Shown: positions 10,220 through 63,628 of the stretch, one piece after another
How positions within the stretch are numbered: position 1 is the stretch's first letter
Layout: each line of letters starts with the position of its first letter
The notes under the pieces: model-generated
The model's input: the letters and a program-made list of their open reading frames with translations, nothing else
What the model was told of the DNA's origin: nothing
Database searches by the model: none
DNA from: Eledone cirrhosa
Lineage: Eukaryota
DNA length: 64,000 bases
Assembly (NCBI GenBank): GCA_964016885.1
Contig: OZ024754.1
Location: 6,696,001 to 6,760,000, forward strand
Direction: 5' to 3'
Made by a program: the position numbers and the translations under genes

Positions 10220-10413
10220 CAAATTTATCCCGGGGTCAATCGGGGATAACCACAGTAAGTAAGGTACTCAATACATAGCAAAGTATACATATTTAATATA
10301 AAAATGGCTTCTACAGGACTAGAACTGTTTCATTCGGGAGAAATCATCAGGAAGGTCTGATGATTTCTCCCGAATGAAACAGTTCTAGTCCTGTAGAAGC
10401 TATTTCTATATTT
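10220..10413. mobile_element. Family A hammerhead mini-element in (TA)n, head-to-head palindrome
   Basis: Same element at 29949-30144, 31756-31950, 34381-34532, 50000-50193, 50225-50551 and 63550-63697. Confidence 0.8.
10308..10354 (-). ncRNA. Type I hammerhead ribozyme, family A
   Basis: Minus: CUUC-CUGAUGA-U-UUC-UCCC-GAA-U-GAAA-CAG-UUCUAGUC-CUG-UA-GAAG. Confidence 0.8.
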
Positions 10414-10629
10414 AAAAAAAAAATATATATATATATAGAGAGAGAGAGAGAGAGATACATATACACATATGTATATAGATATACATATATATATATATAT
10501 GTATGTACATTTTTATACATATGCACACTCACCCCTACACATTATATATATATGTGTAAAAGGTAAACAGAAATAACACAATCGGTATATATATATATAT
10601 ATATATATATACATATATATATATATATA

Positions 10630-11038
10630 AAGAGAGAGAGAGAGAAAGAGAGAGAGAGAGAGAAAGAGAGGGAGAGAGAGAAAACGAGAGAGAGAGAGAG
10701 AGAAAACGAGAGAGAGAAAACGAGAGAGAGAGAGAGAGAAAGAGAGAGAAAGAAAGAGAGAGAGAGAAAGAGAGAGAGAAAGAGAGAGAGAAAGAGAGAG
10801 AGAGAGAAAGAGAGAGAGAGAGAACGAGAGAGAGAGAGAAAACGAGAGAGAGAGAGAGAAAACGAGAGAGAGAGAGAGAGAGAAAACGAGAGAGAGAGAG
10901 AGAGAGAGAGAGAGAAAGAAAACGAGAGAAAGAGAGAGAGAGAGAGAACGAGAGAAAGAGAGAGAGAGAGAGAGAGAGAGAGAGAGAGAGAAAACGAGAG
11001 AGAGAGAAAACGAGAGAGAGAGAAAACGAGAGAGAGAG
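10630..11038. repeat. (GA)n compound microsatellite
   Basis: Visible. Confidence 0.95.
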
Positions 11039-11394
11039 TTGGTGGAACAGATTGCAAAAGACACTTAAGAAACAATAACAATTTCAAACAAAATCAAACA
11101 GTTACCTTTGCAGATTATCCCAAGAAAATTACTGGTATCAGCATGGTATTAGGTCATAATTATAAAATCTCCAGATATTTGACGTTATTGGTATAGTATG
11201 AGATTTATAATAAACACCGAAGAAGTTACACGTGTTAGCATAGTATTAATTCCATTATGAATTTTTACCCCAGTAAATCACTGGTATTGGCATGACAATC
11301 GAACTATTATGAATCCTCAGAATATCGCCCCCAAGAGAATATATATATATATATATATATATATATATATATATATATATAATGTATATATATA

Positions 11395-11533
11395 GTAATA
11401 ATAATAAATATGAAGACTAAAATCCAAACAGGGCTCGATAAGGAGAAATATATATCAAATATATAAAAACCCTAGAAGATCCCGTTAAGGGTGAAAGCAG
11501 CGATTCTTTGCTTAAACTTTAATCTGTTATTTT
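11395..11533. mobile_element. Family J mini-element (partial, rearranged) in (TA)n
   Basis: Matches 36000-36255 and 58562-59148; contains AGAAGATCCCGTTAAGGGTGAAAGCAGCGATTCTTTGCTTAAAC. Confidence 0.7.
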
Positions 11534-11837
11534 AATATATATATATATATATATATATATATATATATATATATATATATATATATATATATATATATAT
11601 ATATAAATATATATATATATATATATCAAATGCAATAGAAATATAAAAGACAGCGAGAAGCGAAAACCAACCAAACAGTGAGTGTGTTCTGTTATTAATT
11701 CTGGCAATATTACACAAATATGACCCTCCCCAAGTATAACAATATATATATATATATATATATATATATATATATATATATATATATATATAGTGACGAA
11801 ATATGAGTCAATTGCATGAACTCATAATCCTTTATTT

Positions 11838-11893
11838 ACTGCTATATATATTTCGATGATAGCCATTGAATGGCTATGACCTCATCAGGCAGT
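11838..11893 (-). ncRNA. Minimal type I hammerhead ribozyme, family E, in (TA)n-flanked island 11793-11907
   Basis: Minus: ACUGC-CUGAUGA-GGU-C-AUAGCCAU-UCA-AUGGCUAU-C-AUC-GAAA-UAUAUA-UA-GCAGU. Confidence 0.85.
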
Positions 11894-13679
11894 TAGTCAG
11901 TTCTTAGATATATATATATATATACAGGTTTCAAAAATGCAATATAAATATATATATATATATACACACAGGTTTCAAAAATGCAATATAAATATATATA
12001 TATATATATATATATATATATATATATAGTAATAATAATAAATTTGAAGACTAAAATCCAAAGAGGGCTCGATAAGGATAAATATATATCAAATATATAT
12101 ATATATATATATATATATATATACAGGGTTCAAAAATGCAATATAAATATATATATATAAATATATATATATAAATATATACACATATATATATATATAC
12201 ACACACAGGTTTCAAAAATGCAAATGTAAATAAACTTGGCTGGGCTTCATGTTACCAGAATATTCCTAGAATATATATATAATCATAAATGAAGTTTTTA
12301 TATTTGGCGCTTGTATTTAATGTAGCTTGTTACTGGTGCTGTTGTTGTTAATGATGATGATGGTGGTGGTGGTGGTGGTGGTGGTGGTGGTGGTGGTGGT
12401 GGTGGTGGTGGTGGTGGTGGTAATTATGGTGGTAAATCATGTTGTCGTCACTGATGCAGTTTAACCTCTTTGATACTAAAAAAAAACCACATGTAAAAGC
12501 CTCTGCTTCTATGACAATATTTTATTTTCAAGTGTTTGTTTGTTTGTTTGTGTGTGTGGTCTGTGTGGTGTGTGGTCTCTGTGTGTGTGTGTGTGTGTGT
12601 GTATGCGTGTGCGTGTGTGTGTGTGTGTGTGTGTGGTGTGTGTGGTGTGTGTGTGTGTGTATATATATATATATTATAGATATATTGTATGTATATATAT
12701 ATATATTATAGATATATTGTGTATATATATACATATATATATTATAGATATATTGTGTGTATATTATATATATATATATATATTATAGATATAGTATATA
12801 TATATATACATATATATATTATAGATATAGTGTATATATATATATACATATATATATTATAGATATATTGTGTGTGTATATATATATATATATTATAGAT
12901 ATATATATATTATAGATATATTGTATATATATATATATATTATAGATATATTGTGTATATATATATATATTATAGATATATTGTGTATATATATATATAT
13001 TATAGATATATTGTGTATATATATATATATATATATATTGTGTATATATATATATATATATATATATATATTGTGTATATATATATATATATATATATAT
13101 ATATATGTAATAGATATGTGTATATATATATATATATATATATATATATATATGTAATAGATATGTGTATATATATATATATATATATATATGTAATAGA
13201 TATGTGTATATATATATATATATATATATATATATATATATATATATAATAGATATGTGTATATATATATAAACACCTTCCGTTATAATTATCCAGAAGA
13301 AAACTGGTCGTCAAGTTCCAAACACCAACTCAATAATTAGAACATTATTTTACAAATTATTGATTATTTCCAAAATGATTTGGAACTGTCTTTGATCAAC
13401 TCTATGGTAACGAGATGGTGAACACCCTTAATCCAATGTGATGAGGTCAACCTACGGTCAAAGGTAACATTCCAGCCGTGGCCACCCCGTTTTTTAATAC
13501 TAAGAAGTCTAAGTATTTTACCTATATCGGACAACAGTGAATTGTGTAAAGGAAATTTAACTGTTATTTCTAGATAGTCAAGTGACCATGTAAAGTCTCT
13601 CTCTCTCTCTCTCTCTCTCTCTCTCTCTCTCGTTGACTCGTAGTAATGACTGGTATTGATGTTACAGCTGGTAATATTT

Positions 13680-61745: not shown

Positions 61746-62499
61746 TATTATTATTATGGTGGTAGTTGTCGTGGTAGTGGTGGTGCGTTGGATTGGCAGT
61801 AGTAGTAGTAGTATTATTAATAGTAGTAGTAGTAGTAGTGGTAGTAGTAGTAGTAGTGGTAGTGGTAATGGTAGTGGTAGTGGCAGTAGTAGTGGTAGTA
61901 GTAGTAGTAGTGGTAGTGGTAGTAGTAGTGGTAGTGGTAGTGGTCGTAGTAGTGGTCGTAGTAGTGGTCGTAGAGGTGGTGATGTTGATGGGGGTGATGG
62001 TGTTGATGGTAGTAGTAGTGGGGGTGGGGTGCGTTGGATTGGCAAAACAGATAGAGCATCGGACAATATACTTTGTGCCTAAATGAAAAACCTTTTTTTA
62101 TTATTGATATTATTTTCCTTTTTATCACAGATTGCTACAAGTCCGGGTTACATACGAAAATAAAACAGTGTCACTTGAATAAAACACTAGAGAGAAAACC
62201 AACACTTGTTTGTGCTTAAAAATCTCTCTAAAAACAAGAGTTGCAAAACTTACACGATGTCTTCGCAAATTACCCAAAAGATAAATATTGATAAGTATGA
62301 AAATAATGACACAACAACGTCCTTTGTTGATAACATTCGAAAGAATAATACCATCTCAATCAACGGGACATTTTCATCAGCAGCCTCAAACTCAGGTTTT
62401 CAACAAAAACATTTAAAAAAATTTTTTCGTTTCATATCAGTTTTTGCTATCAGTGACGTTAACTTTTACCATTACTGCCCTCTCCTGGGAGATTTTAAG

Positions 62500-62690
62500 T
62501 TAGTTAAGGCCTCCTTCGGTCAAAGCTGACCATGGATAGTATCTTGTTGTCAGCTCTGCTGGAGCAGCGTCTCCAGTGGCTAAACAGACCTATACGTGAG
62601 TGACAGTCTCTGTCAACATCAAACACATCTGGAGCTGGTCTCTGGTCTGTTGGATTTATTGCGCCCCTTTCGCCGGACTCTCCCGTCCAC
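62500..62690 (-). mobile_element. RTE (BovB-like) LINE 3' end
   Basis: DRDCHSRIGLFSHWRRCSS, then CCATGGTCAGCTTTGACCGAAGGAGGCC and a TAACT tail. Confidence 0.75.
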
Positions 62691-62749
62691 AGCTGCAATC
62701 ATCAAACTCTCCTCCACTGATTTGAGGTGTTGATTCTGGGCGATATATT

Positions 62750-63145
62750 AACAGTAATCGGTAGAGCGTCAGACACCATGCTTTGCGACATAGAGTTACG
62801 GCCCTTTGCGTCCTAAGTTTAAATCCCGACGAGGTTAACTTTGCCATTCATCTTTACGGGTTCGATAAATAAAGTACTAGTCACGAACTGGGGTCGAGTT
62901 AATTGACTATCCCCTCCACCAAAATTGTTGACCTTGTACCTATAGTAGAAATCACTATTACAACCGTCTCCTGGGCAGTAGATAGGTAGTAACCGGTAGA
63001 GCGACGGACAACATATTTTGTGGCATATATTTATGGTCCTTTACGTTCTGAGCTCAAATCTCGACGGGGTTAGCTTTGCCATTCAACCTTACGAGGTCGA
63101 TAAAATAAAGTACCAGTAATGAACTGAGGTCGAGATAATCTACGA
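62750..63145 (+). mobile_element. Two diverged main-family SINEs
   Basis: Core TTTGCCATTCA....ACG.G.TCGATAAA. Confidence 0.75.
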
Positions 63146-63262
63146 CCCTTTCAGGAATAAGTAAATGAAGAACAACAACAAGAACGACAACAACAACAGA
63201 ACTGTTGGTCCATTCTGGATCACAATGTCTATCAAGATAGTTAAACATTGTCCTGAAGTACC

Positions 63263-63464
63263 TTAACACTTTAGCATTTACATTACTCTATATATACTAT
63301 TGTATTTTACATATCTTACATAATATCGAATCTACGAAATTTTGATATTTATTTTGAGAACAATACCTTAACATCAGTATAAGTGGCGAGTTACGGCTGG
63401 TTTGAACAGAAAGAGGTGAGAGAATTCTGGCCGGATATGGCTGGTTTAAGTGCTAAATGGTTAA
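63263..63464. mobile_element. piggyBac-type MITE
   Basis: TTAA-CACTTTAGCATTTA...TAAGTGCTAAATGG-TTAA. Confidence 0.55.
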
Positions 63465-63549
63465 AAGACAATGAACGAGACGACAACTCATTACTGAACG
63501 TAGACGGGAACGATACAGGAAACAGAACTAGAACTAACCTGAATATATA

Positions 63550-63628
63550 TTTTAATATAGAAGAGCTTCTACAGGACTAGAACTGTTTCATTCGTGAGAA
63601 ATCATCAGGAAGCTCTTCTATATTAAAA
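63550..63628 (-). ncRNA. Type I hammerhead ribozyme, family A, with 20-bp stem I
   Basis: Minus: UUUUAAUAUAGAAGAGCUUC-CUGAUGA-U-UUC-UCAC-GAA-U-GAAA-CAG...CUG-UA-GAAGCUCUUCUAUAUUAAAA. Confidence 0.85.

What the first reader, a model, noticed from the sequence alone, without database searches (positions are those of the whole stretch)
10308..63628. Family A hammerhead shows compensatory covariation within this window
Stem I is GCUUC/GAAGC at 31890 and 63550 but GAUUC/GAAUC at 29965, 34396 and 50416. N7 varies (CUGAUGA vs CUGAAGA). Loop II varies freely (UCCC, UAAA, AUCU, UGAA, UCAC) on a fixed UUC/GAA stem. Loop III varies at one position while ACAG/CUGU and the GUA site are kept in most copies. 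Variation falls mainly where a hammerhead tolerates it, suggesting selection on the RNA structure in several subfamilies. Caveat: the 5' arm of stem I lies at the inversion junction, so part of its complementarity could come from the inversion.
Basis: partly seen in the sequence, partly recalled or inferred. Interest (0 to 1): 0.8.

Follow-up and report, generated by a model that had tools for sequence, protein, structure and literature searches.

The report
Hammerhead fronting a Hydra-clade Penelope retrotransposon
These repeats are short pieces of a Penelope-like jumping gene that carry a hammerhead RNA motif, a known feature of such elements; the new point is that most pieces stop at the motif's first bases, 30 bases behind a TATA box, so the motif likely forms the very start of the element's RNA.

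Summary
Family A is the type I hammerhead in the pseudo-LTR of a Hydra-clade Penelope-like element (PLE), 175 nt before an RT + GIY-YIG ORF found elsewhere in the genome; one 29-mer has 28,049 exact hits. Non-inverted long copies carry the 5' arm of stem I, so the covariation is intrinsic. It amounts to only 2-3 substitution events among subfamily masters, and inserted copies decay neutrally. Stronger support comes from 35 hammerheads in distant Hydra relatives. Not found in my searches: a TATA box 29-30 nt and a CCAAT box about 76 nt upstream of stem I; 5' ends piling up at its first bases (29 of 76 motifs); and an 8-nt palindromic loop III that favours a dimer. Most likely the short inverted copies are run-off cDNAs of uncut RNA that starts at stem I. 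Neither cleavage nor the start site was tested, and no RNA run was listed. Earlier scan notes describe other hammerhead repeats in this genome; a sequence look-up found none on this one.

The parts
10211..10353 (-). Subfamily C long arm: hammerhead (C3 10350, predicted cut after 10312) and leader running into (TA)n; 5' end at +3
10357..10416 (+). Subfamily C short inverted arm; 5' arm of stem I lost at the junction
29949..30013 (-). Subfamily A short arm, GAUUC/GAAUC, 5' end at +2
30009..30144 (+). Subfamily A long arm, 5' end at +5, joined to the short arm through 2-nt microhomology
31755..31893 (-). Subfamily B long arm (N7=A, loop II AUCU, longer loop III palindrome), 5' end at +1
31890..31949 (+). 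Subfamily B short arm, 5' end at +1, overlapping the long arm in the 4-nt palindrome AGCT
34379..34395 (-). 17-nt inverted piece of the leader attached to the 5' end of the 34396 arm
34396..34532 (+). Subfamily A long arm with intact hammerhead (C3 34401, predicted cut after 34439), 5' end at +2
49997..50051 (-). Subfamily C short arm
50067..50190 (+). Subfamily C long arm, decayed (G at position 17, broken stem III)
50224..50552 (.). Compound subfamily A insertion of four arms (C3 50273 -, 50294 +, 50415 -, 50423 +); the long arm starts at +1 (50417)
57977..58017 (+). Fragment holding only the conserved downstream leader box
63550..63614 (-). Subfamily D short arm with hammerhead (C3 63608)
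63609..63702 (+). Subfamily D long arm beginning exactly at the predicted cleavage site; the junction is the stem I microhomology

Best explanation
Family A is the type I hammerhead motif in the pseudo-LTR of a Hydra-clade Penelope-like retrotransposon, and the window's copies are likely run-off cDNAs of an uncut RNA whose predicted start is the first base of stem I. SHOWN: in long copies the order is CCAAT (about -76), TATAAATA (-30/-29), stem I 5' arm (+1), hammerhead (+7 to +45), leader, ATG (+182), an ORF of about 715 codons (RT, CxCX5C linker, GIY-YIG), a 1.37-kb 3' UTR and a second hammerhead. Short copies pile up at +1/+2 at their 5' end, end at two places at their 3' end (about 15-24 and 85-94 nt after the cut site), and sit in (TA)n. 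INFERRED: Pol II starts at +1. The endonuclease cuts (TA)n, and RT starts at two internal leader sites, one for each DNA end. On the 5' copy of the leader both cDNAs run off the RNA end after about 60 and 140 nt and are joined head to head by microhomology, which gives the inverted pairs. RT starting on the 3' copy of the leader gives long copies. The ribozyme is weak alone and likely cuts as a dimer of the 5' and 3' copies through its palindromic loop III, removing the 45-nt capped end. Selection on the fold acts only in transposing masters.
For: ORF linkage: 26 exact hits of the leader-to-ORF junction. L153 is open for 696 codons, and L157 has ORF, 3' UTR and a second hammerhead. Hydra motifs match PMC8557442 section 11. 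The TATA spacing is kept in six subfamilies while 16 of 22 spacer columns vary. 5' ends: 29 of 76 de-duplicated motifs end at -1..+2, a hazard of 0.29/nt against 0.011 upstream and 0.010 inside. In 664 kb scanned by the downstream box alone, 13 of 21 long arms start at +1..+10 (7 of 13 outside the window) and 1 starts upstream. Genome-wide reverse-strand counts fall from 2985 to 1207 over 3 nt across +1, then to 962 over the next 7 nt. Ten non-inverted short or tandem copies also begin at +1/+2. TATAWA lies 33-46 nt before C3 in 13 of 34 distant Hydra-type hammerheads, against 0-1 in each of six other upstream windows and a shuffle mean of 1.4 (maximum 6 in 2000). The loop III duplex is -12.8 kcal/mol (A) and -15.2 (B), against -1.4 for the hairpin. 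Internal RT initiation at two sites, with unprocessed RNA as the main substrate, is shown for the anole PLE (PMC11167929).
Against: No start site or cleavage was measured. The TATA window for the relatives was chosen after seeing the list, 21 of 34 lack the exact hexamer there, and on both strands of all forward and reverse hits the drop across +1 is milder (8515 to 4791 to 3617). Twenty of 76 ends scatter over +3..+9, and the two arms of one insertion are not independent. Stem I complementarity could itself stop or redirect the cDNA. A cap-derived extra G was inconclusive: G precedes 12 of 22 ends at +1 and 13 of 31 at +2, but the partner arm supplies G. The monomer fold is marginal: P(stem II) is at most 0.15, and stem I is lost in 3 of 5 subfamilies when 90 nt of leader are added. 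Rfam hammerhead models do not hit. Only 4 of 13 long-arm ends between +30 and +79 fall at +44..+47, near the cut, and three of them have microhomology or a duplicated junction. D. virilis Penelope uses a TATA-less internal promoter (PMC2377424).
Confidence: 0.62

Rival explanations
1. Same element and ribozyme, but the pile-up at stem I comes from cDNA fold-back or microhomology joining at the stem I arms, or from RT stalling, not from a transcript start. The TATA box drives a start elsewhere.
For: Many junctions use stem microhomology: 17 of 24 subfamily B pairs in the query-selected set overlap in AGCT. The 63609 arm joins through GAAGC/GCTTC.
Against: Non-inverted and head-to-tail copies also begin at +1/+2. 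Subfamilies A and C lack the AGCT palindrome yet pile up at the same place. RT has already unwound stem I before it reaches the 5' arm (inference). The TATA spacing fits +1.
Confidence: 0.2
2. The hammerhead is not catalytically used. The fold is kept as a protein-binding or promoter-proximal structure, and the stem I changes arose by quasi-palindrome template switching in the masters.
For: There are only 2-3 compensatory events, the monomer fold is weak, and few copies start at the cut. In the anole PLE, cleavage is dispensable for insertion in vitro (PMC11167929).
Against: The catalytic core is invariant across six masters apart from one column in a 4-copy majority (14 of 16 subfamily E copies have the usual base). 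35 distant relatives keep the core with varied stems. The anole hammerhead does cleave when protein is added.
Confidence: 0.12
3. The short copies come from a separate non-autonomous retrozyme or SINE-like RNA made from tandem arrays of the promoter-plus-hammerhead unit, not from the autonomous element's leader.
For: Forward-strand hits exceed reverse-strand hits by 1,700-2,500, which points to an unlocated tandem array. L140 is a 250-nt tandem of TATA, hammerhead and leader, and L008 is a 146-nt tandem.
Against: The short copies match the autonomous leader at 97-100% and fall into at least six subfamilies, each with long pseudo-LTR copies. Most copies stop before the promoter, so they cannot be array units.
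Confidence: 0.06

Closest known systems
Hydra clade of C-terminal EN+ Penelope-like elements (Craig et al. 2021, PMC8557442; passages, section 11 and supplement parts 2 and 52 read)
   Same: Single ORF with the RW[K/R], DKT, CxCX5C, CxxC and CxH motifs; C-terminal GIY-YIG; (TA)n targets; type I hammerhead in the pseudo-LTR; inverted 5'-truncated copies with a tail. Many rows of their File S2 show U on both sides at 10.1/11.1.
   Different: Their only octopus Hydra entry (Hydra-1_Obim, listed as having no pLTR) has a different hammerhead in all three helices, so this is another family. Loop III is 8 nt here and 1-3 nt in their Hydra rows. The unit is about 3.6 kb with a 1.37-kb microsatellite-rich 3' UTR, against under 3 kb, and the tail is about 70 nt, against 30-40. 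No Hydra promoter or start site appeared in the passages I read.
Minimal hammerheads of metazoan PLEs (Cervera and de la Pena 2014, PMC4209133; parts 1-2 of 4 read)
   Same: [quoted passage not shown]
   Different: They report a highly conserved G10.1-C11.1 pair, a long helix II and little or no helix III. Here the pair is U-U, helix II has 3 bp, and helix III has 4 bp with an 8-nt loop.
Poseidon PAc of Anolis (Frangieh et al. 2024, PMC11167929; parts 1-2 of 4 read)
   Same: Two internal RT start sites downstream of the hammerhead that explain the tail; AT-rich targets; unprocessed RNA as the main template.
   Different: In PAc the ORF starts inside the hammerhead and RT starts within the ORF. 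Here both inferred sites lie in the leader, before the ATG.
Penelope of Drosophila virilis (Schostak et al. 2008, PMC2377424; abstract and sections 14 and 18 read)
   Same: Promoter and start site lie in the pseudo-LTR, which is formed by partial tandems.
   Different: TATA-less internal promoter with an intron 46 nt after the start. Here an upstream TATA and CCAAT arrangement, LTR-like, is predicted to start at stem I.
Natural U10.1-U11.1 hammerheads (Perreault et al. 2011, PMC3088659; passages read)
   Same: Stem II starting with a U-U mismatch, the best tolerated mispair; palindromic stem and loop III in repeat-type hammerheads.
   Different: Described there as a rare variation. Here U-U is 14 of 35 motifs in Hydra relatives, alternating with G-C (15 of 35).
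Metazoan non-LTR retrozymes (PMC7229834, passages; bioRxiv 10.64898/2026.07.22.740005, part 1 of 5 and passages)
   Same: Short, non-coding, PLE-related repeats with type I hammerheads.
   Different: Retrozymes are tandem units of 150-450 nt. The window's copies are single or inverted 60-140 nt fragments of an autonomous element.

Membership tests
Type I hammerhead ribozyme | Core C3 U4 G5 A6 N7 G8 A9, G12 A13 A14, A15.1-U16.1, H17 | tested here: met
   All six subfamily majorities; 10 of 14 window arms keep stem III and GUA intact
Type I hammerhead ribozyme | Three helices, helix I open-ended, supported by covariation | tested here: met
   78 of 78 cells paired; 2 compensatory pairs and 1 wobble in stem I; stems II and III invariant in the family; stem III pairs 3 and 4 vary and pair in 35 of 35 and 34 of 35 relatives
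Type I hammerhead ribozyme | 10.1-11.1 pair (canonically G-C; U-U is a published natural variant) | tested here: inconclusive
   U-U in all subfamilies; variant known; no Rfam hammerhead hit
Type I hammerhead ribozyme | Site-specific self-cleavage after H17 | not testable with these tools
   Needs an assay; copies starting at the cut site are only a weak hint
Hydra-clade PLE | Single ORF, RT plus C-terminal GIY-YIG | tested here: met
   YRDD and YIGMT motifs in L153 and L157; each copy inspected has a frameshift, stop or truncation; no named Pfam domain hit, so motif names rest and recall
Hydra-clade PLE | RWK motif, DKG changed to DKT | tested here: met
   RWR and DKT in P0121; relatives have RWK
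Hydra-clade PLE | CxCX5C linker; CxxC and CxH flanking the conserved E and N | tested here: met
   CNCLNKEAC, CDLC and CMH in P0122
Hydra-clade PLE | (TA)n insertion, pseudo-LTR with hammerhead, inverted 5'-truncated copies with a tail | tested here: met
Hydra-clade PLE | Placement in the Hydra clade on an RT tree | not tested
   No named reference proteins were available as tool sequences; the assignment is by diagnostic motifs
Non-LTR retrozyme | Tandem units, each with a complete hammerhead | tested here: not met
   Window copies are single or inverted; tandem derivatives exist elsewhere (L140, L008)

The most novel reading that the evidence does not exclude
In Hydra-clade Penelope-like elements an upstream TATA/CCAAT promoter starts the RNA at or just before helix I, so the hammerhead is a built-in decapping switch at the 5' end of the mRNA. 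[quoted passage not shown] The tens of thousands of tiny inverted repeats are a genomic record of the start site and of both RT start sites.
Probability: 0.35. Interest if true: 0.65.

Novelty: new member of a known kind. Interest (0 to 1): 0.42.

Why it matters
What the hammerhead does in endonuclease-bearing PLEs is still open (PMC8557442; PMC11167929). If it sits at the transcript's first bases, the options narrow to removing the cap or trimming a pLTR-to-pLTR unit, and both can be tested with a 200-nt construct. It would also explain why these repeats are so short, inverted and abundant, and would show that Hydra elements use an LTR-like upstream promoter unlike Penelope. The covariation claim alone is ordinary for PLE hammerheads.

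Tried and rejected
Rfam: no hammerhead family among the 150 listed of 292 matches in the window or in 34390-34460. Pfam gave no domain for two ORF pieces. No family ORF lies in the window (tblastn), and one 122-nt ORF fragment lies in 600 kb of neighbouring DNA. Sequencing runs: no RNA holder listed. Contigs of two runs of unknown kind were laid; depth over the hammerhead bins was about a thousand times that over the ORF bins, which is not a copy number and was not used for expression. Rejected: Neptune or Nematis assignment (my first guess, from recall; the motifs fit Hydra); a 3' splice site at stem I (subfamilies C, E and F lack the AG); the inversion as the source of the 5' arm. A cap-derived G was inconclusive. 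In one search the labels B and D were mis-assigned by my script, so only its A and C rows are used; one search has the corrected groups. under-counted and was replaced; one search was replaced. Literature searches. None of the 15 papers listed of 25 contains 'TATA'. PMC13282606 (passages) has no mention of hammerhead or Hydra. The library lacks most subscription papers, Repbase and Dfam were not searchable, and bioRxiv supplements were closed, so this family may already be catalogued.
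Full report
Observation. The window (G000:C14:6696001-6760000 of a 3.0-Gb genome) holds 14 arms with the family A motif in 7 insertions, plus a fragment at 57977. The host is octopus-like by my recall of the repeat landscape and by an earlier scan note; I did not determine it.

What it belongs to. Six of the first 30 genomic matches had a shared non-inverted upstream region, and one ran on downstream. A pattern for that continuation gave 26 places, most leading into an ORF. 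L153 is open for 696 codons. L157 shows leader, ATG, an ORF with one frameshift, a 1.37-kb 3' UTR with microsatellites and a second hammerhead. The protein has RWR, DKT, YRDD, CNCLNKEAC, YIGMT, CDLC and CMH. These are the diagnostics of the Hydra clade of Penelope-like elements, which also targets (TA)n and has canonical hammerheads (PMC8557442 section 11). It has 1,272 unnamed relatives at E<=1e-20; the 120 listed are 38-52% identical. The published octopus entry, Hydra-1_Obim, has a different hammerhead. One 29-mer of the motif has 28,049 exact matches, and the reversed control has 0. The window has no ORF.

Is the covariation real? Yes. Non-inverted copies with the upstream promoter region carry the 5' arm in every subfamily: A AGAUUC/GAAUCU, B and D AGCUUC/GAAGCU, C GGCUUC/GAAGCC, F GGCUUU/GAAGCC (a U-G wobble), and E with one extra U. 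On six representative real copies (E left out), all 78 cells pair; two pairs change on both sides and one on one side, all in stem I. None of 500 shuffles reaches this, which the tool says is not a probability. A tree of 50 long copies with stem I masked puts the C-G to A-U change on the single branch to A and needs one or two changes for the outer pair. N7=A and the loop III variant are private to B. So the evidence inside this family is 2-3 events. Across subfamily majorities, 1 of 26 core and stem II/III columns vary, against 43 of 109 flank columns (p=3e-4); loop II varies at 4 of 4 and loop III at 1 of 8; but a 30-nt leader box is equally conserved, at 2 of 30. After insertion the copies decay evenly: in subfamily C, core 9 of 184, stem III 8 of 138, loop III 11 of 184. 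Inverted pairs read through would fold into hairpins of about -100 kcal/mol with no hammerhead.

Relatives. Of 78 metagenome loci encoding related proteins, 33 hold 39 descriptor hits, against 0.1 per shuffle. Among 35 distinct motifs, stem III pair 3 pairs in 35 and pair 4 in 34, with several pair types; the descriptor required only two pairs but kept the best-scoring reading. Position 10.1-11.1 is G-C in 15, U-U in 14 and other in 6. Loop III is 2 nt or less in all 35, against 8 nt here. U-U at this place is a published variant (PMC3088659) and is visible in File S2 of PMC8557442. This clade-wide pattern is the best evidence that the fold is under selection.

Dimer. The monomer hammerhead fold lies 0.8-3.4 kcal/mol above the predicted minimum for intact 51-nt copies. 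Stem I is well formed (P 0.72-0.98), but stem II is not (P at most 0.09) and stem III only partly (0.04-0.50). Loop III contains CUAG, and in B the one change lengthens the palindrome to ACUAGU. Two copies pair through it at -12.8 (A) and -15.2 (B) kcal/mol, and full dimers keep both stems I. Dimer action is the published proposal for metazoan PLE hammerheads (PMC4209133).

Where the copies stop. I number the first base of stem I as +1. The first 100 hits of the 29-mer on contig C1 gave 96 distinct motifs, or 76 after dropping 20 with identical flanks. Of these, 29 end at -1..+2, 20 at +3..+9, 9 at +10..+21, 5 at -2..-30 and 13 run further. The hazard is 0.29 per base at -1..+2, against 0.011 upstream and 0.010 inside; arms of one insertion are not independent. 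In the window plus 600 kb of neighbours, found by the downstream box alone, 13 of 21 long arms start at +1..+10, 1 upstream, 2 at or next to the cut site and 5 elsewhere. Genome-wide exact counts for subfamily A on the reverse strand go 2985 (from +2), 1207 (from -2) and 962 (from -9); on both strands they go 8515, 4791 and 3617, inflated by a forward-strand excess. TATAAATA (CATAAATA in most D copies) begins 29-30 nt before +1 in all six subfamilies while the spacer diverges (16 of 22 columns), and CCAAT lies near -76. That -30 is the usual TATA-to-start distance is established knowledge, not a call result. In relatives TATAWA falls 33-46 nt before C3 in 13 of 34 motifs (5 duplicate hits dropped from 39), against 0-1 in six other upstream windows and 3-5 in downstream windows; the window was picked after seeing the data. 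The 3' ends of subfamily A arms are bimodal: 26 of 57 at 15-24 nt after the cut site, 22 at 85-94 and 3 beyond 130. This matches the two internal RT start sites and tail shown for the anole PLE (PMC11167929).

Mechanism. Shown: the anatomy, the two 3' end classes, the 5' pile-up and the conserved TATA spacing. Inferred: the RNA starts at stem I; two cDNAs primed from the two ends of a (TA)n break run off that end and are joined by microhomology; most templates are uncut; the ribozyme cuts as a 5'/3' dimer on full-length RNA and removes the capped 45 nt. Between +30 and +79, 4 of 13 long-arm ends lie at +44..+47, a weak hint of cut templates, since three have microhomology or a duplicated junction. 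I put the identity of the element at about 0.95, the start-site reading at about 0.7 and catalytic use at about 0.7.

Novelty. Hammerheads in Hydra elements, covarying PLE hammerhead families, U-U at 10.1-11.1, inverted truncated copies and tails are all in print. I found no account of a TATA-driven start at helix I, or of short PLE copies as run-off products, or in the passages read; this search was limited to an open-access library. Verdict: a new family of a known kind, with one testable mechanistic lead. Interest 0.42.

Noticed in passing
G000, place unknown: Forward-strand hits of subfamily A patterns exceed reverse-strand hits by 1,700-2,500 (about 2,000), which suggests a large tandem array of the promoter-plus-hammerhead unit.
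   Followed up: no
L140:1384-1634: Two 250-nt tandem units, each with TATA, hammerhead, leader and the first ORF codons: a retrozyme-like derivative of this element.
   Followed up: partly
L008:1518-1990: 3.2 head-to-tail units of 146 nt of the leader, consistent with repeated template jumps from the RNA 5' end.
   Followed up: partly
window 32300-32620: Inverted pair of a second type I hammerhead family (C3 32402 - and 32538 +), with long stem II and AT-rich stem III.
   Followed up: no
window 11800-11900 (-): A third type I hammerhead family (C3 11888) in (TA)n; a similar copy lies in L082.
   Followed up: no
window 29521 (+) and 30721 (+): Hammerhead-like cores that fail the type I descriptor; possibly the permuted forms that earlier scan notes describe.
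   Followed up: no
L296-L373: In distant Hydra-type hammerheads position 10.1-11.1 is nearly two-state (G-C 15, U-U 14 of 35), and U-U mostly goes with an odd, 1-nt loop III.
   Followed up: partly
window 38065-40170: Tandem array of a 52-nt unit, about 36 near-identical copies.
   Followed up: no
window 40939-41733 (-): Stop-free frame resembling a mariner-type transposase fragment (by recall of motifs).
   Followed up: no
window 31987-32195 and 53924-54062: Long inverted repeats that score as microRNA-like hairpins below Rfam cut-offs, probably other inverted mobile-element fragments.
   Followed up: no
L036, L055, L059, L081, L133, L148, L163: ORF fragments of other GIY-YIG-bearing Penelope-like families nest next to family A copies in (TA)n tracts.
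   Followed up: no
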